Of a stretch of 64,000 nt of DNA, positions 2,210-29,683 are shown in pieces. How positions within the stretch are numbered: the first letter of the stretch is position 1; each line of letters starts with the position of its first letter. Both the position numbers and the translations under genes were made by a program. The notes under the pieces were generated by a model, which worked only from the letters and a program-made list of their open reading frames with translations, was not told the origin of the DNA and ran no database searches. This DNA comes from a virus. The DNA is taken from IMG/VR virus record IMGVR_UViG_3300045988_023906. One strand, 5' to 3'.

Positions 2210-2229
2210 CACAGTAATTAAATTGAAGT

Positions 2230-6198: not shown

Positions 6199-6199
6199 T

Positions 6200-6352
6200 A
6201 TGGAAATGATGAAAAAGAAACAGGTTGTTGCTTCCCATAATAGAGAGCCTCTTATAGAGAATCTATGGTTAAGGGATGGCAAGTTGCTATACTTTGTCAA
6301 TGGAGAGTGGCAACCTGTATTAGGTCAAGATTCTAAAGTAATTATAGAGTAA
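6200..6352 (+). CDS. 50-aa ORF carrying only the fibre N-terminal motif (ENLWLRDGKLLYFVNGEWQPV)
   Basis: Hand-translated and below the ORF-track cutoff. The ATG lies 1 nt after the upstream stop, and the motif is shared with the 5329 ORF N-terminus. Confidence 0.4.
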   Translation: MEMMKKKQVVASHNREPLIENLWLRDGKLLYFVNGEWQPVLGQDSKVIIE

Positions 6353-6353
6353 C

Positions 6354-6545
6354 ATGTTCACTAAGAATCAAATAGAAGAAATTAGAGACAAATTGGCTCA
6401 GTTGGGAGTCAAGGATACAGAGTTTAAGGTAACAGAAGAAGCATCTGAAGATGATATGATAGCCATTGTCTCAGGTGGTGAGAATAAGATAATCCTGTTG
6501 AAAGACCTATTGAGTGAAGCAGCAGGTACTATTATTATCGAGTAA
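6354..6545 (+). CDS. 63-aa hypothetical protein, possible fibre N-terminal/adaptor fragment
   Basis: The ATG lies 1 nt after the previous stop. The DDMIAIVSGGENKIILLKDLL pattern resembles fibre N-terminal segments. The TAA stop runs straight into a 19-nt A tract. Confidence 0.45.
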   Translation: MFTKNQIEEIRDKLAQLGVKDTEFKVTEEASEDDMIAIVSGGENKIILLKDLLSEAAGTIIIE

Positions 6546-6562
6546 AAAAAAAAAAAAAAAAA
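6544..6562 (+). repeat. Homopolymeric A19 tract between the TAA stop (6543-6545) and the ATG at 6565
   Basis: Counted directly: A at 6544-6562, followed by GA then ATG. Confidence 0.95.
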
Positions 6563-6564
6563 GA

Positions 6565-8271
6565 ATGAAGATTGTTAATTCAATTATGCCAATGAGTGAT
6601 GTAAAGGCATTAGCAGCAAGCGGACAAAAATTAAGAGTAGCAGTAACAAAAACTTCCGCACAAGGTAGGGATGCACAAAGTACTACACCCAATTTAATGT
6701 CTTTCAGTATTGATGAAAGCAGTGTGTGGTTTAATGGAAAGAAGTATGGGGTACATAAATTTAATAATGTTTCAAGCCTGAATACTAACTCAACAGCAGA
6801 ACAGGTATTGTCTGCTTTGAATGTCAGGGAATCTTCTGAACTTTATGATTTAGCCCATAAAGGTGTACTTTTCATAGATACCATTTCTGGAAATACGATA
6901 GTAAAATATGAAGATGGGGATGACACTTTCCAACTCTATGTACCAAGCTCAAATTTAGAGTCAATAGAGAGACTTACTATTAATGTATCTAGTAATAAAG
7001 TGGTAAAGTTGACCACTACATCTCATTTAATGGTTGATGATATCAGGAATACTCTAACCTCTGCTGAGACTGCCAAGGTTCTTTCAGCCGCAATGGGCAA
7101 GAAGCTCCAGGATGAGAAGTTGGCTAAGACAGATGTGGTGAACAACCTAACTACGGATGAAGCTTCAAAAGCCTTATCAGCGGCACAGGGTAAAGCGTTG
7201 AATGACAAGTTTAATGGGAACAAGATAAATATCAACTTCTCAGCTATTTCAGATTCAACAAATAATGCCACTATAAAAGGCTACATGGGGAACATAAATG
7301 GTGACACTCTTGTTAGTAAGCTTACTTATGGTGCAAATCTGGTTGACAGTAGTAGTAATGATTGGGTAATTACTTTGCAGGAGGTAAGTGATACAAAGGT
7401 ATCATTTACAGGTATTAAATTCACAGATTTTAACTTATGCAGTAAGAATGTATCAGTTACTATAAGTGGCGGTAATTATACAAATGTGACTGTTGCTCAG
7501 GATAATAGGCTTGTACCTGCTATAAACAATACCTTAACTTCAACTAGTACTAGTGAGGCTCTTTCAGCAGCTCAAGGTAAAGTTCTTAATGACAGAATCT
7601 CAGGTTTGGGCAATGTGTATAGAGTGAGGGGTACTAAGACTAACTTATCTGATGTACTAGCCCTTACTGATGCAAAGGTTGGTGATGTTTGGAATGTGAC
7701 TAATGCCTTTATTTTAGGTGATAAGCCATATCCTGCAAATACCAATGTTGTATGTATTACAGCAACTAGCTCATCTGACCACGATGGAGGAAATTGGGAC
7801 CCGTTGGGAGGTACTGTTGATTTGAATTCTTATGTGCCTAAGAGTGATATAGTTGATAACCTATCAACTTCAGATTCAAAAAAGCCTCTCTCTGCTAAAC
7901 AAGGACTTGCCCTTGCTGATATGATAACGAAATTAAAAGCTGATAAGGAGACCTATCAGCTTCCCAAAGCACTTGTAAGTGGCACACTATCCACTCAGAA
8001 TGAAATAGATACTATTCTAGGTTCCTATAGTAGCTTCAATGCCGCCCTTAATGCAGGTAAGGTAATACATGGAGTATATAAAGACAGCATCAACAGAATG
8101 AATACAGTAGCATTCTCAGCATTCAATGATACTACTAACAGTAGGGTTGAAATGTTTGCGATACTGAATAATTCTACCTTACTATATATACAGGCTACTT
8201 ATAGTGGGGCTAGTTGGGTTAGTGCTACCACAAGGGAAGAGTCTTTTAATGCAAGCATCACTATAGAATAA
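6565..8271 (+). CDS. Tail fibre protein (568 aa) with four copies of the L-S/T-x-x-x-A-L-S-A-x-Q-G-K-x-L repeat
   Basis: The start is moved to M18 at 6565, because the ORF-track start at 6514 reads through the A19 tract as KKKKKK and overlaps the previous ORF. The repeats are LTSAETAKVLSAAMGKKLQDE, LTTDEASKALSAAQGKALNDK, LTSTSTSEALSAAQGKVLNDR and LSTSDSKKPLSAKQGLALADM. Confidence 0.75.
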   Translation: MKIVNSIMPMSDVKALAASGQKLRVAVTKTSAQGRDAQSTTPNLMSFSIDESSVWFNGKKYGVHKFNNVSSLNTNSTAEQVLSALNVRESSELYDLAHKGVLFIDTISGNTIVKYEDGDDTFQLYVPSSNLESIERLTINVSSNKVVKLTTTSHLMVDDIRNTLTSAETAKVLSAAMGKKLQDEKLAKTDVVNNLTTDEASKALSAAQGKALNDKFNGNKININFSAISDSTNNATIKGYMGNINGDTLVSKLTYGANLVDSSSNDWVITLQEVSDTKVSFTGIKFTDFNLCSKNVSVTISGGNYTNVTVAQDNRLVPAINNTLTSTSTSEALSAAQGKVLNDRISGLGNVYRVRGTKTNLSDVLALTDAKVGDVWNVTNAFILGDKPYPANTNVVCITATSSSDHDGGNWDPLGGTVDLNSYVPKSDIVDNLSTSDSKKPLSAKQGLALADMITKLKADKETYQLPKALVSGTLSTQNEIDTILGSYSSFNAALNAGKVIHGVYKDSINRMNTVAFSAFNDTTNSRVEMFAILNNSTLLYIQATYSGASWVSATTREESFNASITIE

Positions 8272-8281
8272 AAAAAAAGTT

Positions 8282-9988
8282 ATGAGTGCAGAAGGTAAAG
8301 AGTTTAAAGTAAATGTATCTACCGACAGAGCTACTGCAATAAGTAGCTCTGCTGGCAGTTACCCTAATGTGTTGTATTTCCCTATAGATGATGATAATGT
8401 CATCATATTTAATGGGAACATATATGATTGGAATGCAAGTGTAACTTCCCCCAAGTTAATCTCCTCAGGAGACCTGAATACATATAGGGGAACTCAATAT
8501 TTAGGTGTTTATTATGCCAATTATGGCAATAGTATAAGTAATAAACCTTCTGGAGTATCACAGTTTGCATTACATGTGCTCTTGGAGAATAATGACTCTT
8601 CGACTATACAGGTACTTTATTCAAAAAACAAGATATATACTAGAGCTTATGAGTCATCTTCTTGGTCTTCTTGGACTGAGATTGGTGCAGGAGGTGTAAC
8701 TTCTATACCTCAAGCTTCTAGTTCAGCATTAGGAGGTATAAAGATAGGGTACTCTGATAATGGCAGGAATTATGCTGTAGAGTTGGATAGTTCTGGTAAG
8801 GCTTATGTTAATGTACCATGGACAGATACAAATACAACATATAATGTTGCTACTGCTAGTGCCAATGGACTTATGAGTTCCAGTGATAAGTCCAAGCTTA
8901 ATGGAATCCAAGCAGGTGCAGATGCTGTGTCATTCAGCAGGTCTTTGTCTTCAGGTACAAAGATAGGTACCATTAATATTAATGGTGTCAATACTGACAT
9001 ATATGCTCCAACAGCAGGAGAGCCAGTTAAATATGAAGTAGCTACCTCAACTACACTAGGATTGGTCAGGATTGGGTATCCTGAGAGTGGTAAGAATTAT
9101 CCTGTTGAGCTTAATTCCTCAAATCAGATGTATGTCAATGTCCCTTGGACTGACAATAACACAACTTACTCAGCAGGAGCTGGACTTAATTTATCAGGAA
9201 CAGTTTTCTCCCTAAGGAAGGCAACACCTACTACACTAGGTGGTGTAAAGGTATCCAGCACTGAGATTAACACAATATCTACTGTTGCTGCTACTACTTT
9301 TGGTTTACAGAACAGAATATATCCTGTCCAGCTTGCTTATCCATCAGGTAGTGCAGGAACAGATGGTAATAAGGTACTTTCAGTGTATGTTCCTTGGGAG
9401 GATACTACTTATAGTGTAGTAAGTACCTCAAAGAATGGGTTAGTCAGTATGGATTCTGCATTGGCAGAGCTAGCCTACGAAGATAAGGATGCTGGTAACC
9501 TAGGTTCTCTTGCTAGATTTGGAGAGATGGGCATGTTGGAGGTTTCAACAATTATGGAAGATGACTTAGCTCTGGTTAATAAGAGTAATAGCTGGACAGC
9601 ATATCAGGACTTTAAGTCAGGTGCTGGTAATTCAGGCTCTGATATGAGATTCAAAAGGGAAGTCACATGTATGCCTGATGTGCTGGACAATCTGATGTCA
9701 TTAAATGTCATAAAGTATATATGGGAACACCCTGATGAAAATGGTATAAGATGCACTTTTGGTGTGAAAGCTGACCAGCTTCTGTCACTAGGTGGTGTAT
9801 ATGCTACTATGGTCCACAGCAGAGCTGATAAATATGATACCAAGTGGGTAGAATATGATAGATTTGGTGTGCTGGCAATCAAGGCATTACAGGAGGTTGT
9901 AATGAGGAACAAGCAACTGGAGAGCAGGATAGAATATCTTGAGGATACGATAAATTCTATGAGAAGAGTATGGGAAGAGAATTCATGA
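8282..9988 (+). CDS. Tail fibre/spike protein with three GxxKxGY...VNVPWTDTNTTY repeats and a C-terminal intramolecular chaperone (peptidase S74-type) domain
   Basis: The repeats are GGIKIGYSDNGRNYAVELDSSGKAYVNVPWTDTNTTY, LGLVRIGYPESGKNYPVELNSSNQMYVNVPWTDNNTTY and LGGVKVSS...LSVYVPWEDTTY. GLMSSSDKSKLNGI motifs are also present. Confidence 0.8.
   Translation: MSAEGKEFKVNVSTDRATAISSSAGSYPNVLYFPIDDDNVIIFNGNIYDWNASVTSPKLISSGDLNTYRGTQYLGVYYANYGNSISNKPSGVSQFALHVLLENNDSSTIQVLYSKNKIYTRAYESSSWSSWTEIGAGGVTSIPQASSSALGGIKIGYSDNGRNYAVELDSSGKAYVNVPWTDTNTTYNVATASANGLMSSSDKSKLNGIQAGADAVSFSRSLSSGTKIGTININGVNTDIYAPTAGEPVKYEVATSTTLGLVRIGYPESGKNYPVELNSSNQMYVNVPWTDNNTTYSAGAGLNLSGTVFSLRKATPTTLGGVKVSSTEINTISTVAATTFGLQNRIYPVQLAYPSGSAGTDGNKVLSVYVPWEDTTYSVVSTSKNGLVSMDSALAELAYEDKDAGNLGSLARFGEMGMLEVSTIMEDDLALVNKSNSWTAYQDFKSGAGNSGSDMRFKREVTCMPDVLDNLMSLNVIKYIWEHPDENGIRCTFGVKADQLLSLGGVYATMVHSRADKYDTKWVEYDRFGVLAIKALQEVVMRNKQLESRIEYLEDTINSMRRVWEENS
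9638..9988 (+). other. Auto-cleaving intramolecular chaperone domain (S74-like) of the 8282 fibre
   Basis: SDMRFKREV at codon 453 matches the S-D-x-R-x-K cleavage motif. It is followed by ...FGVKADQL...VEYDRFGVLAIKALQEV...LESRIEYLE, the typical ICD layout with a terminal coiled coil. Confidence 0.8.
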
Positions 9989-10800
9989 CACAAATAAAGG
10001 CAGTAAAGAAGGTAGGAGGTTTCCTACCTTCTGCTACAAAACGATTTTGTACAGCCTCTTGGCTTGCAGGCCATTCTGGTATATTTGATACCAACTCCCT
10101 ACAAGGGTATGAAGCAAAAGACTTTGTGAGTGAAATGCATATAAAGCCTGCTATAGTAACAACTAAATATGAAATAACAATTCCTGAGGTGAGGGTTTCT
10201 TTTGGATTTGAAAGTGGCACTCCTCAAAGATTTACATATCTTAGTGACTCTGACCAATTATCACAGACTAAGGCAGTCTTATGTGCAGTACCTGTTGATG
10301 GTGGTCAGATTTCTTCAAGTGTATATACTCCTACTAATGGTGGTAGAGATGACAATTATGGTGTACAGTATATGCTATTCTCAGGCATGAAAATATCTGT
10401 TGTTGCAGGCACCTCACTAGCTAAGTTATACATAGTATTGTATAATGACCAAAATACCATGGTTCAGTATAATAACAAGAGCATTACCAATCTTATGTCA
10501 GGTAACAACATATATAAGCTGGCTAATGCTACTATGAGAAATAGTTCTGTTTACAGTAGCCTGTTTAATGGTGCAAATTACACAAAGACACAAGCAGTAG
10601 GTGATTCTAATGGTAATGCTACTAATTCTGTGTGGTGTGCTATGCTTCCATTGACAGATGATGGAAAATCTAATGGGAGTTATTCAGTAGGTTCAAGCAT
10701 GGAGACACCTCCCACTAATGTCAATTCTAACCAGCAACTGTACAACTTCAAGGGTTCTATAGTTTACAACAAATTAAGTTCATTTACTCCAACTACATAG
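9985..10800 (+). CDS. Hypothetical virion/fibre-associated protein (271 aa)
   Basis: The ATG at 9985 forms an ATGA overlap with the upstream stop; an alternative ATG lies at 9970. The protein is Ser/Asn/Thr-rich and appears beta-rich. No motif was recognised. Confidence 0.5.
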   Translation: MTQIKAVKKVGGFLPSATKRFCTASWLAGHSGIFDTNSLQGYEAKDFVSEMHIKPAIVTTKYEITIPEVRVSFGFESGTPQRFTYLSDSDQLSQTKAVLCAVPVDGGQISSSVYTPTNGGRDDNYGVQYMLFSGMKISVVAGTSLAKLYIVLYNDQNTMVQYNNKSITNLMSGNNIYKLANATMRNSSVYSSLFNGANYTKTQAVGDSNGNATNSVWCAMLPLTDDGKSNGSYSVGSSMETPPTNVNSNQQLYNFKGSIVYNKLSSFTPTT

Positions 10801-10802
10801 CT

Positions 10803-11417
10803 ATGAGAAAGATATTAGTAAGTATTATATCAGTGATTATGCTGGCTTCCATATCCTGTTCCATGTATTACTGCAATGGGTATAAGAAAATATCTGATGA
10901 GTTGGCTGTTGCAGTGAATAACAATAAGGCATACTCCTTGGAGAACAGTTCCCTGAAGAAGGAAAATAGAGTGTATAAGCTAACTGCTGAGCAGCTTGAG
11001 TATTACAGTGATTCCATTACTGTTGAAATGGACAGGATTAGAAAGGAGTTGAAGATAAAGGATAAGGATTTGCAATACTTACAATATCTGTTATCTACAT
11101 CAGAAAGGATAGATACTGTTACTTTCCAAGATACCATATTCAGTGAAACAACATTTCATGTTGATACTCTGATTGGGGATAAATGGTATCAGTTGAAGCT
11201 GGGAATGAAATTCCCTAATGTCATTACAGTGCATCCTAAATTTGTAAGTGAGAAATACATAGTTACACATAGCAAGAAAGAGACTGTAAATCCTCCTAAG
11301 AAATTTTTTCTGTTTAGATGGTTTCAGAAGAAACATAGAGTGGTGGAAGTTACTATTGTGGAAAATAGTCCTTATGTGAATAATAAGCAGCAAAAATTTA
11401 TTGAAATAATTAAATGA
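10803..11417 (+). CDS. Signal-anchored or lipoprotein-like coiled-coil protein (204 aa)
   Basis: The N-terminus MRKILVSIISVIMLASISCS is hydrophobic and ends in Cys, followed by a coiled-coil-like segment. The architecture recalls membrane proteins next to lysis genes in Bacteroidota prophages (from memory). Confidence 0.5.
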   Translation: MRKILVSIISVIMLASISCSMYYCNGYKKISDELAVAVNNNKAYSLENSSLKKENRVYKLTAEQLEYYSDSITVEMDRIRKELKIKDKDLQYLQYLLSTSERIDTVTFQDTIFSETTFHVDTLIGDKWYQLKLGMKFPNVITVHPKFVSEKYIVTHSKKETVNPPKKFFLFRWFQKKHRVVEVTIVENSPYVNNKQQKFIEIIK

Positions 11418-11418
11418 C

Positions 11419-11799
11419 ATGATTGACCTAGGTATATTAATTACTGGAGGAGTAGGGATAATAACCACAGTAATCAGTGGTTGGACTTCTTGGTTCTTTG
11501 CAAGAAGAAAGTATAATAGTGAGGTAGATAATAACCTCATAGAGAACATGCAGCAGTCTTTGGAGTTTTATAAGAAGTTGTCTGATGACAACAAAAACAG
11601 ACTTGACGAGGTTCTTAAAAGAAATGCAGAGCTGGAACAGGAGATAAAGGATTTAAGGAAGCAGATGTTCAGTCTCATGAACTCCATCTGTACTGACCTT
11701 ACTTGTCAGTTGAGAAAAAGAAACTTGAATTTATTTAATGAGCAAAATGGAACTGATAGTAGACAGGAAATGGAAGAAACAGAGTTACACGATAAGTAA
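11419..11799 (+). CDS. Single-pass membrane protein with a coiled coil (holin- or i-spanin-like)
   Basis: The TM segment GILITGGVGIITTVISGWTSWFF is followed by ARRK and then a heptad-like region, LDEVLKRNAELEQEIKDLRKQMFSL. Confidence 0.5.
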   Translation: MIDLGILITGGVGIITTVISGWTSWFFARRKYNSEVDNNLIENMQQSLEFYKKLSDDNKNRLDEVLKRNAELEQEIKDLRKQMFSLMNSICTDLTCQLRKRNLNLFNEQNGTDSRQEMEETELHDK

Positions 11800-12211
11800 C
11801 CTCCTTGTAGATGGGAAGTGGTTCTGTAATGTACTTGAAGATACTGATAGAGGATTAGATGACAGCATGAGTGTCGCTAAAATCAAATCCTTAAAGAAAT
11901 CAGGCATTACAGCAATCCCTAGCGGAACTTATGATGTAACTTTAGATGTATATAGCCCTAAGTTTGAGTCTAAATCTTTCTACAAAGAAACATGCAATGG
12001 CAAATTGCCCAGACTTCTTAATGTAAAGGGGTTTGATGGTATCCTTATACATGCAGGTAATACAGATAAGGATACTTCAGGATGTCTCTTGGTAGGTGTA
12101 AACTCTGAAGTTGGTAAGGTTCTGAATAGTCGGGATACATTCAGGAAGCTATATAAGCTACTTCAAGAGGGCAAGAATAGAGGTGAGAAAATAACCATAA
12201 AAATTCTATGA
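11747..12211 (+). CDS. DUF5675-like protein, possible cell-wall-active enzyme (H...SGC motif)
   Basis: MELIVDRKW..SNLLVDGKWFCNVLED...TAIPSGTYDVTL...GILIHAGNTDKDTSGCLLVG fits my memory of DUF5675. The start is uncertain (11738 or 11747). Confidence 0.55.
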   Translation: MELIVDRKWKKQSYTISNLLVDGKWFCNVLEDTDRGLDDSMSVAKIKSLKKSGITAIPSGTYDVTLDVYSPKFESKSFYKETCNGKLPRLLNVKGFDGILIHAGNTDKDTSGCLLVGVNSEVGKVLNSRDTFRKLYKLLQEGKNRGEKITIKIL

Positions 12212-12262
12212 TATGGCAAAGAAGTGTGGTTGCAAAGGAAAAGGTAAGAACAATAGAGGTAA

Positions 12263-12523
12263 ATGATTATGGATGCAAGAATAGTTTCAAATCAAGTTAT
12301 AAATAGCCTTCAAATATCTGTACTGAAGGAGGTGCCTTCAGGGAACTTCAATCCCGGAGTCAACTTCCTACTGAAGAATATATCTGATAATGATGTGGAG
12401 GTTACTATAATTCCAGCAGGACAAAAGGATAGCATAAAGACTATTCTAGGTGTTGGATGGAATCCAGAGATATGTAAAGGTGTTATAAATGCCCCTTCAG
12501 GAGTTCTTCAATATGGATATTAA
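12263..12523 (+). CDS. Hypothetical protein (86 aa)
   Basis: ORF tightly packed before the fibre gene. No motif was recognised. Confidence 0.45.
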   Translation: MIMDARIVSNQVINSLQISVLKEVPSGNFNPGVNFLLKNISDNDVEVTIIPAGQKDSIKTILGVGWNPEICKGVINAPSGVLQYGY

Positions 12524-12526
12524 GAT

Positions 12527-14623
12527 ATGGCAACAGCAATTATAGGTACATTAAAGCATCTTCCTAAGGCATCAATACTGCCTACTTTACCAGAGACAGG
12601 TAGACCTAACAGGATATATTTTATCCCCAATGAAGACCCTACAGAAGATAATAGGTATAATGAATATCTATGGGTAAAGGATGAGACTTATCCTGATGGC
12701 CATTGGGAGCTTGTTGGTCCTGCCACAATAGACCTGACTGATTATGCCACTAAGGAAGAGGTAAGTGATTTGGAAGACTCCATAGGTGAGCAAATAAAGA
12801 AGTATTTGCCCTTATCAGGAGGTACAATGGATAAGGGCAGCAACATATCCTTCCCATCAGATAGTGGGAGTACTGTGTATAATGGTTCTGGAATATCAGT
12901 GGGTGGCAAAGCCAGTACTGACATCCTACATGCAGCAGGAGGCACTACTAAAATCAAGACCTTGAATGGAGAATCTATGTTAGGAGAAGGTAATATTGTA
13001 ATAGACCCTTCAAGTGTTCCAGTATCTTTAAGCTGGTATAATAGGACTAGCAGTCAGCAGGATGCCACAATAAACCTGACAATTGGAGATACCACAGTAA
13101 ACCTATTCCCTAATATATTCAAATTATTTAAGGCTGGTAAAGTTTCCACTTCCGAGTCCCTTAGTATAGAACTTACTGCTAATCCTGGGGTAAGTGGGAC
13201 ACCACAAGTTCCTACCTCATTATGCCAGTGGAGCATACCTTTGGCTGACAGTAATACCGCAGGTATTATATCAAGTGAGGATAAGGCTAAGTTAGATAAC
13301 CTATCTGACCCAAAGAATTTGCTAGCTTATGGTGTGGAATGGGATTCTACCAACAGTAGCCCTGTACTTACTAGAATAGGTAACATGAGCCTGCATAAGT
13401 CTCTCCCAATACAATCAGCATTAAGAGGATGTGTATGCCAAGGTAAAAGGATAATGTATTATTTGGACCCAAATGACTGGTCTAAGAAAGCAGATGGTAC
13501 AGATTCCAGATTGGATGGATATGATGGTACTGTACAGGTAGAAGTACCTGAATTTTATTTGTGGTCTGAAACGGAAGGAACCAAATCCAGAGTATATGTG
13601 TCTACCCAAAAAGTAGTTTCTTATGCTATAAGGATTCCTCATATGTTGGTAGATGCTTATAGGAGTACTGTACTTAATGAAGTGCCTGAGGATATGGGCT
13701 ATTTATCTACACTTCAAGTAAATAGTGCTATTTCAGTTGTAAATACCTCTTCTTATTGTAGAGGAGGAAATAATAGCTCTAGCAGTGATACCTACTTGGA
13801 ATCGGATAAATTCAGGACTAGTTTAGGAAAACCTAGAACAAACACTAGTAGGGCAAACTTCAGAACTTATGCCAAAAATGCTGGCAAGATGTTGCTTACT
13901 TATGAGTACTACAAATCAATATTCTATTGGTTGTATGTTATAGAATATGCAAACTTCAATAGTCAGGCAAACTATGTTGAAGATTTGACTGAAGATGGAT
14001 ATAGACAGGGAGGGCTTGGCAATGGAGTTACTACTTGGAGTGATGCTGTTTGGAATACTTATAATGGCAGATGCCCAATAACTCCATGTGGGTATTGTAA
14101 TGAGTTTGGTAACTTTACTGGAATTAAGGACTTGGTAATTCCTGCTTCAGATGGTATCAGTACCGTAACTTTCAAAGTACCAAGGTGGAGAGGATTTGAT
14201 AATGTGTTTGGAGATATTTGGACTAATCTGGATGGTATCCTAATAGATACTTCTGTCAGTGCCAGTAAGTCCACACCAAACTATGTGTATATTATAAATG
14301 ACCCTGATAAGTTCACTGATACTTTGTCAGATGCACCTACCAATGCGGATAGAGTAGTAGTATCAGGACATACAGGAGGGTATATTACAAAGTGGGCATT
14401 AGGGGAGTATGCAGATATAATACCTGTTAGTGTTGGTGGTTCTGCAACTACTTATATGTGTGACTGTTACTGGGTAGATTCTGATAATACTCAGAATACA
14501 CTACTGGTTGGTGGCCGGGCTCATTATGGTTCTAATGCTGGCTTGGCTTACTTCTTTTCTGCTCATGGTTCGGGTTATGTTTCTGCCCATGTCGGCTTTA
14601 GGTGCTTAACACTGATAAGCTGA
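12527..14623 (+). CDS. Tail fibre / receptor-binding protein (698 aa), target of the DGR, with a CLec/FGE-like C-terminus
   Basis: N-terminal NRIYFIPNE...YNEYLWVKD...GHWELVG, a fibre motif NTAGIISSEDKAKLDNL, and C-terminal LLVGGRAHYGSNAGLAYFFSAHGSGYVSAHVGFRC carrying the variable repeat. Confidence 0.8.
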   Translation: MATAIIGTLKHLPKASILPTLPETGRPNRIYFIPNEDPTEDNRYNEYLWVKDETYPDGHWELVGPATIDLTDYATKEEVSDLEDSIGEQIKKYLPLSGGTMDKGSNISFPSDSGSTVYNGSGISVGGKASTDILHAAGGTTKIKTLNGESMLGEGNIVIDPSSVPVSLSWYNRTSSQQDATINLTIGDTTVNLFPNIFKLFKAGKVSTSESLSIELTANPGVSGTPQVPTSLCQWSIPLADSNTAGIISSEDKAKLDNLSDPKNLLAYGVEWDSTNSSPVLTRIGNMSLHKSLPIQSALRGCVCQGKRIMYYLDPNDWSKKADGTDSRLDGYDGTVQVEVPEFYLWSETEGTKSRVYVSTQKVVSYAIRIPHMLVDAYRSTVLNEVPEDMGYLSTLQVNSAISVVNTSSYCRGGNNSSSSDTYLESDKFRTSLGKPRTNTSRANFRTYAKNAGKMLLTYEYYKSIFYWLYVIEYANFNSQANYVEDLTEDGYRQGGLGNGVTTWSDAVWNTYNGRCPITPCGYCNEFGNFTGIKDLVIPASDGISTVTFKVPRWRGFDNVFGDIWTNLDGILIDTSVSASKSTPNYVYIINDPDKFTDTLSDAPTNADRVVVSGHTGGYITKWALGEYADIIPVSVGGSATTYMCDCYWVDSDNTQNTLLVGGRAHYGSNAGLAYFFSAHGSGYVSAHVGFRCLTLIS
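14504..14603 (+). repeat. DGR variable repeat (VR)
   Basis: 100 nt, 78/100 identical to 14702-14801 with no indels. All 22 mismatches lie opposite an A in the downstream copy. Confidence 0.9.
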
Positions 14624-14701
14624 TTTGATAAAGAAAAGAAAATCATAGTTTTACTATGTAGGACATATATTATACGACTTGGTTAGTTCTAATTGTAAAA
14701 A

Positions 14702-14801
14702 CTAGTTAGTAGCAAGGCTAATAATGGTTCTAATGCTAGCTTGGCTAACTTCAATTCTACTAATAGTTCAGGTAATGTTAATGCCAATATCAGCTTAAGG
14801 T
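14702..14801 (+). repeat. DGR template repeat (TR), non-coding
   Basis: Intergenic copy. It has 31 adenines, 22 of which differ in the VR. In the VR frame it reads LVSSKANNGSNASLANFNSTNSSGNVNANISLR, rich in AAT/AAC/AGC codons. It possibly extends 5 nt upstream to 14697, and is followed by a T10 run. Confidence 0.9.
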
Positions 14802-14928
14802 ATTTTTTTTTTGTTTTCTCTTTAAATTTTATATGTGATATATGTTCCTTGCCTCTAGGCAAAAGATAAATAGTTTAAAAAGTACTAGTAAGAGTTGCTG
14901 AAAGTGCTTAATATGAAACACCTAAATT

Positions 14929-15063
14929 ATGGTTAAAAGAAAAGGAAATTTGATTTTATCCCTATGCAGGATGGATAATATTCTCTTGGCAGATACAAAT
15001 GCTAGGAAAGCTAAAAGGAGGAGTAGAAGATTTATAGAAAAACATGATAAGAATATTATAGAA
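14929..15063 (+). pseudogene. N-terminal stub of a DGR-type reverse transcriptase
   Basis: MVKRKGNLILSLCRMDNILLADTNARKAKRRSRRFIEKHDKN matches the remembered RT N-terminal pattern M-KR-GNL...NL-LA--NARKGK. The RT finger/palm motifs (YxDD) are absent downstream. Confidence 0.6.
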
Positions 15064-15539
15064 GAGGATAGAAACTACCCTAGAAGGCATGAAGATGATG
15101 GTTTCATGGATGTGTTTGATTCTAGAAGCAATAGGTTTGGTGACAGGTTCAGAGACTCTGGCATGAGAGGAAATGACATGGACAGAATAATAAAGTACAT
15201 GAGACATTCCATGAATGATGGAGAACACTTTACTGAATCTGAAGCTATGGATTTGGTATCTAATATGAGGGTGGCAGAAAGTATAGTGGAGAAAAGTTTG
15301 ATATACATAAGGCAAAGGAAATTTGTGAAAGGTATAGAGGAGTGATTCCTGTGTCTGCAACTCCTACTGATGTGTATGTGGCAATCAACTCACAGTATCA
15401 TGATTATGTTGAGCTGTTTAAGAGTTGGTTTGGTGATAATGTAGACCAAAAGATAATAGAATCTGCTATTATATTCTGGTTCAAAGATGTGGATTGCAAA
15501 GCCGAAAACAAGGTAGTAGAATATCTTGGAGAATACTAA
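14929..15539 (+). pseudogene. Chimeric, frameshifted ORF: RT stub fused to an R/D-rich conserved hypothetical gene split by a -1 frameshift near 15264
   Basis: Frame A reads ...GEHFTESEAMDLVSN. The -1 frame continues YEGGRKYSGEKFDIHKAKEICERYRGVIPVSATPTDVYVAINSQYHDYVELFKSWFGDNVDQKIIESAIIFWFKD. Together these reconstitute one familiar protein family (from memory). Confidence 0.55.
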
Positions 15540-15545
15540 TAAGAT

Positions 15546-15577
15546 AAGGGTAAGAGGTAATCTTACCCTTTCTTTTT
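15546..15577 (+). terminator. Rho-independent terminator
   Basis: Perfect 10-bp stem AAGGGTAAGA/TCTTACCCTT with a 5-nt loop, followed by TCTTTTT. Confidence 0.75.
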
Positions 15578-15629
15578 GTCCATATTGCAAGTATTTTTAT
15601 ATGCTACTAATAAGTGTTTTATTTACTAT

Positions 15630-15661
15630 CTTGCAGATATGCAAAACTTTACTTACCTTTG
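15630..15661 (+). promoter_or_regulatory. Bacteroides-type promoter (cTTG-N20-TAccTTTG) for the scaffold/capsid operon
   Basis: TTG at 15631-15633, a 20-nt spacer and TACCTTTG at 15654-15661, within TTACTTACCTTTGCA. Confidence 0.7.
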
Positions 15662-15692
15662 CACTGTTTTAAGAACAAAAAGGTAGAAGAGT

Positions 15693-16859
15693 ATGGAAGA
15701 AGAACTTAGCTTAGATAACATCTTAGGAGCAGAGGAGATTGAGAATCTGTTTGTAGAAGATGAGGATACACAGGATACCCCACCTGCAAATGGGGAGCCT
15801 CCTAAGAAAGAGGAGGAGCCAAATAAGGATAAAGAAGAAACTACTGAGGTTGTTGATGTAGATAACTTATTTACTGATACACCAGAGAGCGTAGGTAGTG
15901 GAAAAGAAAATACAGAGGAAAAGGAAGATACCACTCCTAAAGGGGATGGCACTTCTCCCAAAAACTTCTACTCTTCCATTGCCAAAGCCTTGAAAGAGGA
16001 AGGTATCTTCCCAGCCCTTGATGATGAGGGCTTATCTAAGGTTAAAGACCCTGAAGACTTTAGAGATTTAATTGACCAACAGATAAAGGCAGGTCTTGAT
16101 GAAAGACAGAGAAGAATTGATGAAGCCTTGAATGCTGGAGTTGAACCTACAGAGATTAGAAAGTATGAGAATACTATAAACTTCCTTGATTCTATTAAGG
16201 AAGAGAATATCTCTGATGAAGGTGATAAGGGAGAAAAACTTAGAAAAGACCTGATTTATCAAGACTTTATCAATAGAGGTTATAGTAAGGAAAGAGCTGC
16301 AAGAGAAGTGCAAAAGTCTTTCAATGCTGGTACTGATATTGATGATGCAAAAGAGGCTTTGAAAAGTAATATTGACTTCTTCAAAGATAAGTATGATGAG
16401 CTTGTCAATGAGGCTAAGTCAGAAGCAGAACAGGAAGAGAAAGAAAGAAAGAAACAGGCTGAAAAGCTTAAATTATCAATCCTTAATGACAAGGATGTGT
16501 TTGGGGATTTATCAATAGATAAATCAACAAGACAGAAGGTTTATGATAACATAGCTAAGCCTGTGTATAAAGACCCAGAGACAGGAGAGTACTTTACTGC
16601 TATCCAAAAATATGAGATGGAGAACAGAACAGACTTCCTAAAGAACATTGGGTTACTTTTCACACTAACTGATGGCTTTAAGAACCTTGATGGTTTGGTG
16701 AAAGGTAAAGTAAAGAAAGAAGTAAAGAAAGGTCTTAGAGAGCTGGAACATACTCTCAACAACACAGCAAGAACCTCAGATGGTAATCTAAAGTTTGTCA
16801 GTGGAGTTGATGAGGACCCTGAATCTTTCATAGGAAAAGGGTGGAATCTTGATGTCTAA
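15693..16859 (+). CDS. Scaffolding-like protein (388 aa, acidic N-terminus, K/E-rich helices)
   Basis: Lies immediately upstream of the capsid gene. The N-terminus is highly acidic and low-complexity, and the composition is coiled-coil-like. Confidence 0.45.
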   Translation: MEEELSLDNILGAEEIENLFVEDEDTQDTPPANGEPPKKEEEPNKDKEETTEVVDVDNLFTDTPESVGSGKENTEEKEDTTPKGDGTSPKNFYSSIAKALKEEGIFPALDDEGLSKVKDPEDFRDLIDQQIKAGLDERQRRIDEALNAGVEPTEIRKYENTINFLDSIKEENISDEGDKGEKLRKDLIYQDFINRGYSKERAAREVQKSFNAGTDIDDAKEALKSNIDFFKDKYDELVNEAKSEAEQEEKERKKQAEKLKLSILNDKDVFGDLSIDKSTRQKVYDNIAKPVYKDPETGEYFTAIQKYEMENRTDFLKNIGLLFTLTDGFKNLDGLVKGKVKKEVKKGLRELEHTLNNTARTSDGNLKFVSGVDEDPESFIGKGWNLDV

Positions 16860-16946
16860 GCTATGTTTAAGTCTGGTATTTACTTATGGAGAAATAAAAT
16901 TACTAATGGTTTTATAAAAATAATTTATAATTTTTAATATTTTTTG

Positions 16947-18461
16947 ATGATGGCTGGAAAATTAGGTAAGTTTCAAATGGTAGGCTTCCAACACTGGAAG
17001 GGCCTTACTAAGGAAAACCACCTTGGTTCTATCTTTCAGTTAGCTCCACAGAAGGCTACAAACCTAATGGTACAACTGCTGGCCTTCTATAGAGGAAAGA
17101 CACTTGACACATTCCTAAATCAATTCCCAACAAGAGAGTTTGAGGATGATAATGAATACTACTGGGATGTTATTGGTTCTTCAAGGAGAAACATTCCTCT
17201 TGTAGAGGCAAGAGATGAAAATGGTACTGTTGTTACAGATGCCAGTGGTATGATTGGAGTAGGCACTGCTCCCTTCTATTTGGTATTCCCTGAGGATTGG
17301 TTTGCTGATGGTGAATACATTGTAGGTAATCTGAATGAAATCTATCAGTTCAGAATACTTGGAGACCCAAGAATGGAGGGTACTAATGCAGTGTATAAGG
17401 TAGAGCTTGCTGGTGGTAACACAGCAGGTGTTCCTGCTGAAAGATTGCTTGCAGGTGAGAGATTCTCAGTTGAAGCTGCATTTGTTGAGAAGGAACTTTC
17501 AAGAAAGGTTGGTGATGTAAGATTTACAAGCCCTGTTTCTATGAGAAATGAGTGGTCTGTAGTAAGAATCCAACACAAGGTTCCAGGTTCTATGTTGAAC
17601 AAGAAGCTGGCTGTAGGTATTCCTATTGTTAAGGAAACTGAGGGTAGATATACTAAGTCAGTTGCTACAATGTGGATGCACAATGTAGATTGGGAAGTAG
17701 AACAGCAATTCTCTGAGTACAAGAACAATGCACTTGCATTTGGTAGAAGCAACAGAAATGCCAATGGTGAGTACATGAACTTTGGTAAGTCTGGTAATGT
17801 TATTAAGACAGGTGCTGCTCTGTTTGAGCAGATGGAAGTTGCTAATACTGTGTATTACAACACATTCAGCTTGAAGCTTCTTGAAGATGCTCTATATGAG
17901 CTTTCTGCTTCTAAGTTAGACTTTGGAGACAGATACTTCTTGATTAAGACTGGTGAGAGAGGTGCTATCCAATTCCACAAGGAAGTACTAAAGACAGTAT
18001 CAGGTTGGACACAATTTGTTCTTGACAACAGCTCTATTGGTGTTATTCAAAAGACTCAATCTAAGTTGCACCAAAACTCATTGAGTGCTGGTTTCCAATT
18101 TGTTGAGTATAAGGCTCCTAATGGTGTTAGAGTTAAGATTGATGTAGACCCATTCTATGATGACCCAGTAAGAAACAAGATACTTCATCCAAATGGAGGT
18201 GTTGCATTCTCTTACAGATATGATATTATGTACATTGGTACTATGGACCAACCTAATATCTTTAAGTGTAAGATTAAGGGTGACAATGAGTACAGAGGTT
18301 ATCAATGGGGTCTAAGAAACCCATTCACAGGTCAAAAGGGTAATCCTTACATGTCATTTGATGAGGATTCTGCTGTAATTCACAGAATGGCTACTCTTGG
18401 TATCTGTGTTCTTGACCCAACAAGAACTATGTCACTAATCCCTGCAATTCTACAGGGCTAA
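16947..18461 (+). CDS. Major capsid protein (about 504 aa)
   Basis: Called from size and position (scaffold-like gene upstream, strong terminator downstream) as in crAss-like phages. The ATG is at 16947 or 16950; the track start at 16944 is a TTG. Confidence 0.65.
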   Translation: MMAGKLGKFQMVGFQHWKGLTKENHLGSIFQLAPQKATNLMVQLLAFYRGKTLDTFLNQFPTREFEDDNEYYWDVIGSSRRNIPLVEARDENGTVVTDASGMIGVGTAPFYLVFPEDWFADGEYIVGNLNEIYQFRILGDPRMEGTNAVYKVELAGGNTAGVPAERLLAGERFSVEAAFVEKELSRKVGDVRFTSPVSMRNEWSVVRIQHKVPGSMLNKKLAVGIPIVKETEGRYTKSVATMWMHNVDWEVEQQFSEYKNNALAFGRSNRNANGEYMNFGKSGNVIKTGAALFEQMEVANTVYYNTFSLKLLEDALYELSASKLDFGDRYFLIKTGERGAIQFHKEVLKTVSGWTQFVLDNSSIGVIQKTQSKLHQNSLSAGFQFVEYKAPNGVRVKIDVDPFYDDPVRNKILHPNGGVAFSYRYDIMYIGTMDQPNIFKCKIKGDNEYRGYQWGLRNPFTGQKGNPYMSFDEDSAVIHRMATLGICVLDPTRTMSLIPAILQG

Positions 18462-19566: not shown

Positions 19567-20430
19567 ATGACACTACAGGAGTTTTCAGATGAATTTGATG
19601 TTCTCTACAATAATATATCCAGTAACCAAGCTCCGGGCCTTAATGAGTATGAAAAGTCTGTGTTTCTCACAAAAGCTCAGAATGAGATAGTAAAGAACTA
19701 CTTTACTTCTACCCAAGGAGGTAACAAGTACCAGCAAGGGTTTGATGATTCTGCCAAAAGACAAATAGATTTCTCTACTCTTCTAGTGCAAGAAGCCTGT
19801 CCCTTGATAAAGGTGGATTCCAAGAGGGGAACTGATATTTTGGAGGGTGTCACAATCCCCGGAAATATCTATGGCAGTGCTCCTGAAGCTGTATTATTCA
19901 ATGCCCCTAGCTTTATTGACAAAATACTGTTAGTGGTATCAGAAAGGATAATCATTAAGGATACAGATAATAATGTAGATAAGTATTATCAGGTAGTGCC
20001 TATAAAATTAGATAGTTTGCTTAATAACCTGAGCAAGCCCTATGGAAGACCTTTAAAGAGGCAAGTGTGGAGAGTTATAGAGACTTTTGGAGACCCTAAA
20101 GGGTCTGAAGGCCAGGCTGTAATTCCCACAAAGTACAATGGGTTCAGGTTTATATTGCATGATGCAGATGAGCAATTCCTAGGAGAATCTGGAGGTGAAA
20201 GTCCAGAGGATACCAAGGCCATTTACTTTATCACATATCTAATCAAGCCTAAACCAATAGTATTGGAGGACTTGGTTGGTGTATCAGTAGATGGTGAATC
20301 AGAGCAATCTCCATGTGTCTTGAATAGTGAACTACATCCTGAAATTCTTCAAAGGGCAGTAGAGTTAGCTAAATCTGCTTATATGGGAGATTTGAAAAGT
20401 AGTGTTGAACTGGGACAAAGAAGTGAATAA
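19567..20430 (+). CDS. Head-tail joining candidate, paralogue A (287 aa)
   Basis: N-terminal MTLQEFSDEFDVLYNN...LNEYEKSVFLTKAQNEIV and C-terminal LHPEILQRAVELAKSAY parallel the next ORF. Confidence 0.45.
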   Translation: MTLQEFSDEFDVLYNNISSNQAPGLNEYEKSVFLTKAQNEIVKNYFTSTQGGNKYQQGFDDSAKRQIDFSTLLVQEACPLIKVDSKRGTDILEGVTIPGNIYGSAPEAVLFNAPSFIDKILLVVSERIIIKDTDNNVDKYYQVVPIKLDSLLNNLSKPYGRPLKRQVWRVIETFGDPKGSEGQAVIPTKYNGFRFILHDADEQFLGESGGESPEDTKAIYFITYLIKPKPIVLEDLVGVSVDGESEQSPCVLNSELHPEILQRAVELAKSAYMGDLKSSVELGQRSE

Positions 20431-21116
20431 TGACAACTGAGGAATTTTCTAATGAATTTGATGTTCTATTGAACAGCTACTCTTCAGGTGGAATTGAGTT
20501 CAATGAGTATGAGAAATCAATCTTTCTTACAAAAGCCCAAGAAGACCTATTAGTGGAATTATACAATGGTAAGAATCCATTCAGAGAATCATTTGAAGAG
20601 ACTGAGGAAATAAGGAGATACCTGAGCAACTTGGTAAAGACTTATACCACTACTGAAAAAATAGCAGACATTACTGGAATATCTGATAAGTCTGTATTCT
20701 TCAAGTTACCTAGTGACTTGTGGTTTATAGTTTATGAATCAGTTGAGCTGAGGGATGATAAGCTAGGCTGTAAGGATGGTAACCAAGTACTTGTGGTACC
20801 CACTACCTTGGATGATTACTACAATACATATAACAATCCATTCAGGGGTCCGGGATACAGGAGAGTCCTGAGACTTGATATTGATAATGGGATTGCAGAA
20901 ATAGTATCAAAGTATAATATAAGCAGGTACTTAGTCAGGTACCTATCTAAACCCAATCCAATTATATTGGTAGCACTGCCTGCCCATCTAAACATAAATG
21001 GAGAAAGCAAGATAACAGAGTGTGATTTACATCCTGCATTGCATAGGGTAATACTTGATAGGGCAGTAGGACTTGCAATAGCAAGCAAGGGTTTGGATAC
21101 AAACAGAACAAAATAA
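20430..21116 (+). CDS. Head-tail joining candidate, paralogue B (228 aa)
   Basis: N-terminal MTTEEFSNEFDVLLNS...FNEYEKSIFLTKAQEDLL and C-terminal LHPALHRVILDRAVGLAIAS. The start codon abuts the previous stop (TAATG). Confidence 0.45.
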   Translation: MTTEEFSNEFDVLLNSYSSGGIEFNEYEKSIFLTKAQEDLLVELYNGKNPFRESFEETEEIRRYLSNLVKTYTTTEKIADITGISDKSVFFKLPSDLWFIVYESVELRDDKLGCKDGNQVLVVPTTLDDYYNTYNNPFRGPGYRRVLRLDIDNGIAEIVSKYNISRYLVRYLSKPNPIILVALPAHLNINGESKITECDLHPALHRVILDRAVGLAIASKGLDTNRTK

Positions 21117-29672: not shown

Positions 29673-29683
29673 TAAATAATATT

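What the first reader, a model, noticed from the sequence alone, without database searches (positions are those of the whole stretch)
14504..14801. Adenine-specific VR/TR repeat pair: a diversity-generating retroelement targets the C-terminus of a tail fibre
Two 100-nt copies align without indels.
- Copy A (14504-14603) encodes ...LVGGRAHYGSNAGLAYFFSAHGSGYVSAHVGFR of the 698-aa fibre.
- Copy B (14702-14801) is non-coding and lies about 80 nt past the stop.

By hand alignment 78/100 positions are identical. Every one of the 22 mismatches has A in copy B (A to G 10, A to T 7, A to C 5). No C, G or T of copy B is mismatched, and 22 of its 31 adenines differ.

In the VR frame, copy B is full of AAT/AAC/AGC codons (LVSSKANNGSNASLANFNSTNSSGNVNANISLR). 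This is the defining signature of DGR mutagenic retrohoming. The GG...GFRC-type C-terminus looks like the CLec/FGE fold typical of DGR targets.

One feature is unusual. Copy B also carries adenines at apparently scaffold positions (GG, GFR), which are G-containing codons in the VR.
Basis: partly seen in the sequence, partly recalled or inferred. Interest (0 to 1): 0.9.

Follow-up and report, generated by a model that had tools for sequence, protein, structure and literature searches.

The report
Orphaned DGR repeat pair, reverse transcriptase deleted
The two repeats are a genuine variable/template pair of a diversity-generating retroelement on a crAss-like gut phage tail fibre, but this genome has deleted the reverse transcriptase, so the fibre tip is a frozen record of past hypermutation, a decay state already known in other crAss-like phages.

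Summary
Copies 14504-14603 and 14702-14801 are 78/100 identical, and all 22 mismatches have A in copy B (P about 3e-15).

It is a DGR VR/TR pair on the C-terminus of a 698-aa fibre of a Kahnovirus-like (Steigviridae) crAss-like phage. Structure search puts the fibre's C-terminal module nearest the DGR variable proteins TaqVP and Mtd and formylglycine-generating enzymes. An RT-17-like spacer RNA (14845-14921) is also retained.

The reverse transcriptase is gone. Only codons 1-47 remain (14929-15069). A 4,714-nt deletion across a 10-nt microhomology (15063-15072) fuses them in frame to a DUF7841 gene fragment. An intact relative (L084) shows the ancestral layout: fibre-VR, TR, spacer, 338-aa RT, then eight further genes.

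No other RT is found in the window or in the rest of the closest complete genome. At least 10 independent contigs carry this same deletion, all with the identical fibre.

Of 27 genomes of the species, one is demonstrably intact. The others carry many different deletions and 16 VR alleles.

This is a new member of a known kind, of modest interest.

The parts
12527..14623 (+). Target gene: 698-aa tail protein / putative fibre. Residues ~253-698 form the conserved C-terminal module with a CLec-like fold.
   Evidence: ORF. It is 98.5% identical at nucleotide level to the cr85_1 gene annotated 'tail protein'. More than 7,000 homologue clusters, none with a Pfam domain. AlphaFold model pTM 0.82. Top Foldseek PDB matches are TaqVP 5vf4 (prob 0.95), Mtd 1yu0-4 and FGEs.
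14504..14603 (+). Variable repeat (VR), encoding ...LVGGRAHYGSNAGLAYFFSAHGSGYVSAHVGFR.
   Evidence: Hypervariable among relatives at TR-A positions. There are 16 VR allele groups in 27 genomes of the species.
14702..14801 (+). Template repeat (TR), non-coding. It differs from the ancestral TR at col 42 (A>G) and col 88 (G>A).
   Evidence: The same TR, within 1-2 nt, occurs in L002, L005, L006, L008 and L084 with different VRs.
14845..14921 (+). Structured spacer RNA element between the TR and the RT start (Rfam RT-17-like): an invariant hairpin CCUUGCC-NCUN-GGCAAAA plus a second stem.
   Evidence: RT-17 RF03020 at 37.5 bits (gathering 40.4), full-length model, E 7.5e-6. Found at the same position in the intact cassettes L084 and L014. 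Conserved hairpin and 4 covarying pairs in 8 lineages.
14929..15069 (+). Remnant of the DGR reverse transcriptase gene: codons 1-47 only. All catalytic motifs are absent.
   Evidence: 47 of 48 residues identical to the N-terminus of the intact 338-aa RT of L084. tblastn with the L014 RT matches only residues 1-47. The nucleotide alignment to L015 stops at the junction.
15063..15072 (.). Deletion junction: the 10-nt microhomology AGAGGATAGA is present in both the RT gene and the DUF7841 gene of intact relatives. 4,714 nt are missing here.
   Evidence: window = R1-569 joined to R5284-7103 of intact reference L084, with a 10-nt overlap.
15073..15539 (+). Remnant of the DUF7841 gene (cr85_1 gp071 homologue). 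It lacks its first ~53 codons, is fused in frame to the RT remnant (fusion ORF 14929-15345), and is broken by a further 10-nt deletion between 15266 and 15267, so the C-terminal part reads as ORF 15342-15539.
   Evidence: Pfam DUF7841. tblastn. Alignment to cr85_1. Coordinates.

Best explanation
The pair is the VR and TR of an avd-less DGR cassette of the crAss-phage type: target gene-VR, TR, structured spacer RNA, RT.

In the ancestor, TR-spacer RNA was reverse transcribed by the adjacent RT with misincorporation opposite adenines, and the cDNA replaced the VR. This diversified the CLec-like receptor-binding tip of a tail fibre. That step is inferred from the signature and from established DGR knowledge.

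In this genome a single 4,714-nt deletion between two copies of a 10-nt microhomology removed:
- RT codons 48-338;
- seven downstream genes (a 141-aa ORF, an HTH protein, a GIY-YIG endonuclease, and homologues of cr85_1 gp075, gp074, gp073 and gp072);
- the first ~53 codons of a DUF7841 gene.

What remains is the VR, the TR, the spacer RNA and 47 RT codons fused in frame to the DUF7841 remnant. This is shown directly by alignment to intact relatives.

The element can therefore no longer diversify on its own. The present VR is the frozen product of the last homing event. The absence of any mismatch at the 69 non-A positions means the loss is recent.
For: - A-only mismatch signature, P = 2.7e-15.
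- Intact same-species cassette in L084: VR/TR with 20 A and 0 non-A mismatches, 338-aa RVT_1 RT with IGNYLSQ and YADD motifs, and eight further genes. L014 is also intact.
- The RT family matches BPP-1 Brt at 33% identity (E 9e-34) and many crAss-like phage RTs at 45-60%.
- The window equals L084 R1-569 joined to R5284-7103 with a 10-nt overlap. The window has RT residues 1-47 only.
- No RT core or YxDD-type candidate elsewhere in the window, and none in the rest of cr85_1.
- The deletion is real. The exact fusion ORF occurs on at least 10 contigs of ~98.4 kb from ENA, JGI and Logan. The two contigs retrieved are identical to the window over 8,417 nt.
- The exact fibre sequence has the same carrier distribution as the fusion ORF, whereas its 90% cluster has 1,910 members.
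- VR variation among relatives lies at TR-A positions while the TR is conserved.
- In RT-intact lineages, genomes differing at 8-9 of 2,300 flank positions differ at 15-19 of 100 VR positions.
- Most genomes sharing an inactivating deletion have near-identical VRs.
- CLec-type fold and spacer RNA.
Against: - About 34 kb of this phage's ~98.4-kb genome lie outside the window and were checked only through the relative cr85_1, not directly.
- The invariant VR in carriers of this deletion has limited power. The two carriers retrieved show no differences at all over 8.4 kb, and an RT-intact pair with zero flank differences also had identical VRs.
- Two deletion groups contain members with very different VRs (L080 in G1; L005/L082 against L087/L088 in G3). 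VR alleles can therefore still change hands after RT loss, by recombination or by homing in trans.
- No IMH or hairpin could be identified.
- Fold similarity is moderate: E about 1e-3 and TM 0.33-0.41 over a multi-domain model.
Confidence: 0.85

Rival explanations
1. The orphan cassette is still serviced in trans. A co-infecting relative with an intact RT either uses this genome's retained TR-spacer RNA or supplies its own mutagenised cDNA, which homes into this VR. The fibre would then still diversify, at a reduced rate.
For: - The TR and the RT-17-like spacer RNA are retained, with 0 non-A VR/TR mismatches.
- Intact relatives with a near-identical TR circulate in human gut samples (L084, L085).
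- Members of the same deletion group can carry VRs differing at ~20 positions with only 9 of 800 upstream differences (G3).
Against: - All known carriers of the window's deletion have one identical fibre.
- Within deletion groups, most VRs differ by 5 positions or fewer, and some of those differences are at non-A sites, as ordinary mutation would give.
- Homologous recombination between co-infecting phages explains the exceptions equally well. L080 also differs at ~77 of 800 upstream fibre positions.
- Nothing tested here distinguishes trans homing from recombination.
Confidence: 0.1
2. The DGR is fully active in cis, because a functional RT is encoded elsewhere in the same genome.
For: About 34 kb of the genome lie outside the window. 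The VR/TR signature is pristine.
Against: - In every relative with an RT, it lies directly after the TR and spacer.
- The window keeps the first 47 codons of exactly that RT at exactly that place.
- No RT-like sequence is found elsewhere in the window, or in cr85_1 positions 1-18000 and 66000-98164.
Confidence: 0.03
3. The repeat is an ordinary diverged duplication, or a chance similarity, and is unrelated to retrohoming.
For: None beyond the bare existence of two similar 100-nt stretches.
Against: - All 22 mismatches fall at A of one copy, P = 2.7e-15.
- The same arrangement with an adjacent RT occurs in dozens of related loci.
- The TR is conserved and the VR is variable across genomes.
Confidence: 0.01

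Closest known systems
DGR of crAssphage LMMB and the incomplete DGR cassettes of AlphacrAssvirinae genus I (Morozova et al. 2020, PMC7290462)
   Same: Same architecture: target gene-VR, TR, RT, without avd, on a tail-fibre gene of a crAss-like phage. Same population pattern: a minority of genomes have the complete cassette (16% there) and most carry truncated RT and/or missing TR (73% there). Here 1 of 27 is demonstrably intact across the whole region.
   Different: A different crAss family (Steigviridae/Kahnovirus here, against Intestiviridae genus I) and a different target protein (698 aa here, 486-aa T-CFP there). Here the exact deletion junctions, the microhomology and a series of shared first-hit deletions are resolved against an intact same-species reference. 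I found no report of DGRs in Steigviridae in the searchable literature.
Bordetella phage BPP-1 DGR (mtd-VR, avd, TR, brt)
   Same: Adenine-specific TR-to-VR differences at the C-terminus of a tail-fibre receptor-binding protein with a CLec fold. The RT of intact relatives is homologous to Brt at 33% identity, E 9e-34. Mtd is among the top structural matches.
   Different: No avd in this clade. No GC-rich IMH or strong hairpin was recognisable. The TR contains many 'AG' adenines that always appear as G in the VR, whereas the BPP-1 TR contains no AG dinucleotide. In the window the RT is deleted.
[quoted passage not shown]
   Same: The more distant relatives of this fibre module and RT (42-55% fibre identity) lie mostly on contigs of ~95-190 kb, many about 180 kb. 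They have complete fibre-VR/TR/RT cassettes with 0-4 non-A mismatches. That fits the description of full-length RTs and C-type-lectin tail fibre targets in Zeta phages.
   Different: The window is a ~98-kb Steigviridae genome and its cassette is decayed.
Context-dependent adenine misincorporation of BPP-1 bRT (PMC12875486; bioRxiv 10.1101/2025.08.18.670894)
   Same: In BPP-1 bRT the base 3' of the template adenine dominates the error profile, C misincorporation (A-to-G in the target) dominates most contexts, and G misincorporation in NAG is 0.08%. Here TR adenines followed by G give only G or A, never C or T.
   Different: The average misincorporation rate reported for bRT is ~31%. Here AG adenines are G in 94% of 265 cases, and in 60 of 64 cases at 4-fold degenerate sites. 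The TRs of this clade also place such adenines in scaffold glycine codons, which the other three DGRs examined avoid entirely.

Membership tests
Diversity-generating retroelement (DGR) | A VR/TR repeat pair whose differences are confined to adenines of the TR | tested here: met
   22 of 22 mismatches at TR adenines and 0 of 69 non-A positions mismatched. P = 2.7e-15.
Diversity-generating retroelement (DGR) | A DGR-clade reverse transcriptase ([I/L/V]GxxxSQ and YxDD motifs) encoded next to the TR | tested here: not met
   Only codons 1-47 remain (14929-15069). The motifs IGNYLSQ and YADD, present in L084, L014 and L015, are deleted here. No RT elsewhere in the window.
Diversity-generating retroelement (DGR) | TR invariant and VR variable among related genomes, with variation at TR-A positions | tested here: met
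   25 of 31 A positions vary, against 12 of 69 non-A positions, all singletons or doubletons. Identical TRs are shared by 8-9 loci with different VRs. 16 VR allele groups in 27 genomes.
Diversity-generating retroelement (DGR) | Target protein with a C-type-lectin (CLec/FGE) or Ig-type variable domain carrying the VR at its C-terminus | tested here: met
   Model pTM 0.82. The top 20 PDB matches are exclusively TaqVP, Mtd and FGE, best E 1.5e-3 and prob 0.95. The strength is moderate, and there is no sequence-level hit.
Diversity-generating retroelement (DGR) | IMH/IMH* at the 3' ends of VR and TR, and a hairpin downstream of the VR | tested here: inconclusive
   VR/TR similarity ends at ...AGGT. 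There is only a weak 5-bp hairpin GCTTA-N7-TAAGC after the VR, and it is not conserved across lineages. Cols 96-97 behave as a fixed end difference.
Diversity-generating retroelement (DGR) | Accessory protein Avd (or an HRDC-type accessory) | tested here: not met
   There is no ORF between the fibre and the RT other than spurious ones over the TR, both in the window and in intact relatives. Absence of avd is reported as normal for lineage-3 / crAss-type cassettes (PMC7290462), so this does not count against membership of that sub-type.
Diversity-generating retroelement (DGR) | Structured RNA between the TR and the RT (spacer / RT-associated motif) | tested here: met
   RT-17-like element at 14845-14921, 37.5 bits, just under the gathering score of 40.4. 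Same place in L084 and L014. Conserved hairpin and 4 covarying pairs. That the Rfam RT-N motifs are named for their association with RT genes is from my own knowledge.
Incomplete / remnant DGR cassettes of crAss-like phages (as in PMC7290462) | VR and/or TR retained with a truncated or absent RT, in a genome whose close relatives carry the complete cassette at the same locus | tested here: met
   The window against intact L084 of the same species (8 differences in 469 nt outside the VR over R101-569). 23 further decayed genomes were mapped.

The most novel reading that the evidence does not exclude
In the avd-less DGR clade of crAss-like phages, the reverse transcriptase may convert a template adenine to G almost deterministically when the base 3' of it (the base copied just before) is G.

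The TR would then carry two classes of adenine:
- randomising ones, in AA and AT contexts;
- 'cryptic guanines', in the AG context.

The cryptic guanines let the TR spell invariant glycine and other scaffold codons (AGY read as GGY) while staying less similar to the VR.

Evidence so far:
- AG gives G in 94% of 265 sites in this fibre family and in 40 of 42 sites in five independent Suoliviridae cassettes.
- At 4-fold degenerate sites the count is 60 G, 4 A, 0 C and 0 T.
- TR A/G polymorphisms fall at AG sites.
- Three non-crAss DGR TRs contain no AG at all.

Selection on synonymous sites, or another post-synthesis bias, is not excluded.
Probability: 0.5. Interest if true: 0.55.

Novelty: new member of a known kind. 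Interest (0 to 1): 0.35.

Why it matters
For annotation, a perfect adenine-only VR/TR signature is not evidence of an active DGR. Here it sits beside a 47-codon stump of the RT, so DGR callers that key on the repeat pair, or readers of raw sequence, would over-call activity.

For phage biology, the locus adds Steigviridae to the crAss-like families in which DGR cassettes are mostly found in decayed form. It also supplies a well-resolved natural series: one intact genome, one with a single 699-nt inactivating deletion, and more than 20 with nested or independent deletions. That series could be used to date DGR loss, and to ask whether inactivation is selected to lock in a successful receptor-binding allele. 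One VR allele is found on three mutually incompatible inactivating deletions.

For DGR mechanism and engineering, the AG-to-GG rule would extend the context map recently measured for BPP-1 bRT to a different RT lineage, if it proves to be enzymatic. It would also suggest how templates can encode fixed positions with adenines.

Tried and rejected
- Sequence-level classification of the fibre failed. Pfam, NCBIfam and PDB sequence searches gave nothing significant, so only the fold comparison was informative.
- Rfam at gathering threshold found nothing in eight related loci. The RT-17 match is just below threshold and needed E-value mode plus my own alignment and covariation check.
- The search for an IMH or a conserved hairpin downstream of the VR was inconclusive.
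- Mapping deletions against L015 produced an apparent recurrent breakpoint at 'A316'. This was an artefact of L015's aberrant, VR-like TR and disappeared when the intact L084 was used as reference.
- The VR comparison used a TR register off by 3 nt and is void. It was redone. L073, L075 and L076 have indels in the VR and were left out of the allele counts.
- 'Frozen VR in carriers of the window's deletion' was intended as a decisive test but is underpowered, because the carriers retrieved are clonal. The shared-deletion groups give a better but not clean test.
- I considered RNA editing, very-short-patch repair, partial homing and G>A drift of the TR as explanations for AG>GG. None fits the interspersed, lineage-wide pattern, which includes synonymous sites, as well as a neighbour-dependent RT bias does. 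None was tested directly.
- I considered that the window might be a misassembly. This was rejected because the exact fusion ORF is present on at least 10 independently assembled ~98.4-kb contigs.
Full report
**1. The observation**

Window 14504-14603 and 14702-14801 align without gaps at 78/100. All 22 mismatches have A in the downstream copy (A>G 10, A>T 7, A>C 5). None of its 69 non-A positions differs, and 22 of its 31 adenines differ. An independent repeat search found the same pair. The hypergeometric probability that 22 mismatches all land on the 31 adenines is 2.7e-15. The upstream copy is the 3' end of a 698-aa ORF (12527-14623). The downstream copy begins 78 nt after the stop codon.

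**2. What surrounds it**

The window is a crAss-like phage. It has a Crass_capsid major capsid protein at 16944-18461 and giant ORFs. Its closest GenBank relative is cr85_1 (Kahnovirus oralis, Steigviridae).

A DGR should have a reverse transcriptase after the TR, and here it does not. The ORF that starts 128 nt after the TR (14929-15345, 138 aa) begins with a DGR-RT-like N-terminus and then continues as a DUF7841 protein.

No RT core motif and no similarity to DGR RTs exists anywhere else in the 64 kb. The parts of cr85_1 that correspond to the genome outside the window have none either.

**3. The ancestral state and the deletion**

Loci encoding relatives of the fibre were collected from IMG/VR and from metagenome contigs. 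More distant relatives (42-55% fibre identity) almost all carry the canonical cassette:
- fibre-VR, with the TR 189-212 nt downstream (start to start);
- then an RT;
- 14-28 adenine mismatches and 0-4 non-A mismatches.

L014 (69% fibre identity) has an intact 344-aa RVT_1 RT.

L084 is a 102.7-kb contig of the same species as the window, with 8 differences in 469 nt outside the VR. It carries the complete arrangement:
- VR and TR with 20 A and 0 non-A mismatches;
- the spacer;
- a 338-aa RT with IGNYLSQ and YADD motifs;
- a 141-aa ORF, an HTH protein and a GIY-YIG endonuclease;
- homologues of cr85_1 gp075-gp072;
- the DUF7841 gene (gp071 homologue).

Aligned to L084, the window is R1-569 joined directly to R5284-7103. 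A single 4,714-nt deletion runs from nucleotide 144 of the RT gene to nucleotide 159 of the DUF7841 gene. The two ends share the 10-nt microhomology AGAGGATAGA, of which one copy remains at window 15063-15072.

The result is an in-frame fusion of RT residues 1-47 (47 of 48 residues identical to L084) to the DUF7841 remnant. A further 10-nt deletion between 15266 and 15267 then breaks the remnant's frame.

The RT family is a bona fide DGR RT family. It matches BPP-1 Brt at 33% identity (E 9e-34) and many crAss-like phage RTs at 45-60%.

**4. The deletion is real and circulating**

The exact 138-aa fusion protein is encoded on at least 10 contigs of ~98.4 kb from ENA, JGI and Logan assemblies. 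The two retrieved contigs are identical to the window over 8,417 nt.

The exact 698-aa fibre has the same carrier distribution as the fusion ORF. Its 90%-identity cluster, by contrast, contains 1,910 distinct sequences. Every known carrier of this deletion therefore has the same VR.

This fits loss of diversification, but the test is weak. The carriers are essentially clonal, and an RT-intact pair with zero flank differences also had identical VRs. RT-intact genomes differing at only 8-9 of 2,300 flank positions do differ at 15-19 of 100 VR positions.

**5. Other retained DGR parts**

Between the TR and the RT start lies a structured RNA element at 14845-14921. It matches Rfam RT-17 over the full model at 37.5 bits (gathering 40.4). 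The same element lies at the same place in the intact cassettes L084 and L014. An alignment of eight cassette lineages shows an invariant hairpin and a second stem with four covarying pairs.

The fibre's conserved C-terminal module (residues ~253-698) has more than 7,000 homologue clusters and no Pfam domain. An AlphaFold model built on 30 sequences has pTM 0.82. Its top 20 matches among solved structures are exclusively CLec-fold proteins:
- the DGR variable protein TaqVP (prob 0.95, E 1.5e-3);
- Mtd;
- formylglycine-generating enzymes.

I could not identify an IMH or a conserved hairpin after the VR. There is no avd in this clade, as reported for crAss-type lineage-3 cassettes (PMC7290462).

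**6. Variation among relatives**

Among 14 close relatives, 25 of 31 TR-adenine positions of the VR vary. Twelve of 69 non-A positions vary, all as singletons or doubletons, and 53 of 783 positions vary in the upstream fibre. TRs are shared unchanged by up to 9 loci with different VRs.

**7. The species-wide picture**

Against L084, 27 genomes of this species show the following:
- one demonstrably intact cassette;
- two partial contigs that are intact as far as they reach;
- one with a frameshifted RT and an aberrant TR;
- 23 with deletions.

Several first-hit deletions are shared by groups that then carry further, different deletions:
- R152>852 in six genomes, of which L083 has only this one;
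- R274>1062 in three;
- R291>1357 in four;
- R257>916 in two;
- R210>331 in two.

Right-hand ends cluster inside the DUF7841 gene, just upstream of the next gene block. Junction overlaps range from 0 to about 50 nt. The three longest (31-50 nt) all end inside or just past the GIY-YIG gene and may reflect presence or absence of that mobile gene rather than deletion.

VRs fall into 16 allele groups. The largest (10 genomes) spans three mutually incompatible first-hit deletions, and each intact or near-intact genome has its own allele. Most members of a deletion group have near-identical VRs, with a few ordinary point differences that include non-A sites. L080, and L005/L082 against L087/L088, are exceptions. 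They require recombination or homing in trans.

This pattern of decay was described for AlphacrAssvirinae genus I (16% complete and 73% incomplete cassettes; PMC7290462). It is mentioned for Alpha and Epsilon phages in PMC12386605. I found no report for Steigviridae.

**8. The 'scaffold adenines'**

This is a family-wide rule.

Across 36 VR/TR pairs with 13 distinct TRs, the VR base at a TR adenine depends on the base that follows the adenine:

| Base after the TR adenine | n | A | C | G | T |
|---|---|---|---|---|---|
| G | 265 | 5% | 0% | 94% | 0% |
| A | 353 | 25% | 17% | 29% | 29% |
| T | 313 | 52% | 22% | 15% | 11% |
| C | 110 | 47% | 1% | 49% | 3% |

At 4-fold degenerate third positions (CTA, TCA, GGA, GTA before G) the count is 60 G, 4 A, 0 C and 0 T. 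Selection for glycine alone therefore cannot explain the pattern.

Five independent Suoliviridae crAss-like DGRs give G in 40 of 42 AG cases. The TRs of Bacteroides phage Versailles, hankyphage and BPP-1 contain no AG at all. TR A/G polymorphisms fall at AG sites: window col 42, L084 col 91 and five sites in L047.

For BPP-1 bRT it was recently shown that the 3' neighbour dominates the error profile and that A-to-G dominates most contexts, at an average misincorporation rate of ~31% (PMC12875486; bioRxiv 10.1101/2025.08.18.670894). The pattern here is consistent in kind but much stronger, and it appears to be exploited to encode fixed codons. In the window, 8 of the 10 A>G differences are of this type.

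**9. Verdict**

The repeat pair is real and is of DGR origin. The element in this genome is a recently orphaned relic that cannot diversify by itself.

It is a new member of a known kind, namely the incomplete DGR cassettes of crAss-like phages. Interest is modest. The most novel reading not excluded is the near-deterministic AG>GG recoding by this RT clade.

Noticed in passing
window 14702-14801 (TR) against 14504-14603 (VR); loci L002-L054 and L062-L066: TR adenines followed by G are G in the VR in 94% of 265 cases (never C or T), in 60 of 64 cases at 4-fold degenerate sites, and in 40 of 42 cases in five independent Suoliviridae DGRs. The TRs of Versailles, hankyphage and BPP-1 contain no AG dinucleotide. 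This explains the 'scaffold adenines'.
   Followed up: partly
L001-L016 and L070-L088, region corresponding to window 14620-15700: The ~5.6 kb between the fibre stop and the gene upstream of the capsid gene is a deletion mosaic. There are more than 15 distinct deletion alleles in 27 genomes and up to 6 deletions per genome, with right ends clustered inside the DUF7841 gene. Only L084 is intact across the whole region.
   Followed up: partly
L001, L003, L016, L078, L083 (R152>852); L072, L081, L086 (R274>...); L087, L088 (R291>1357): One VR allele (5 or fewer differences) is found on three mutually incompatible RT/TR-inactivating deletions. This suggests either repeated independent inactivation on one successful fibre allele or recombination.
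   Followed up: partly
L015 about 10173-10272: In this near-intact relative the 'TR' keeps TR-like adenines in its first ~30 nt, but its 3' 70 nt carry A>N substitutions that differ from its own VR. Either the TR itself was overwritten by mutagenised cDNA, or the short contig is an assembly chimera. Its RT also has a frame break near codon 113.
   Followed up: no
L084 5098-5700 (absent from the window): A GIY-YIG endonuclease gene (Pfam E 4e-7) and an HTH protein lie between the RT and the gp075 homologue in the intact cassette. The three longest junction overlaps (31-50 nt), all ending inside or just past this gene, suggest a presence/absence polymorphism of a mobile endonuclease, which could contribute to local instability.
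   Followed up: partly
window 2167-2215, 15619-15667, 29673-29721: Three copies of a ~49-nt intergenic motif ending in TTACTTACCTTTGCA lie just upstream of gene blocks. They look like a repeated phage promoter of the Bacteroidetes type. The middle copy lies just beyond where most of the deletions end.
   Followed up: no
window 19567-20430 and 20430-21116: Adjacent ORFs of 287 and 228 aa share 75-80% identical nucleotide stretches at their 5' ends (repeats D3 and D4), so they are tandem paralogues in the structural module.
   Followed up: no
window 15266/15267: A 10-nt deletion relative to cr85_1 splits the DUF7841 remnant into two frames (ORFs 14929-15345 and 15342-15539). It is reproduced in all carriers of the fusion ORF, so it is not a sequencing error.
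   Followed up: yes
loci L019-L055 (IMG/VR contigs, many about 180-190 kb): The same fibre C-terminal module and RT family occur on contigs twice the size of the window's genome, possibly Zeta crAss-like phages. This implies exchange of the fibre-DGR module between crAss families.
   Followed up: no
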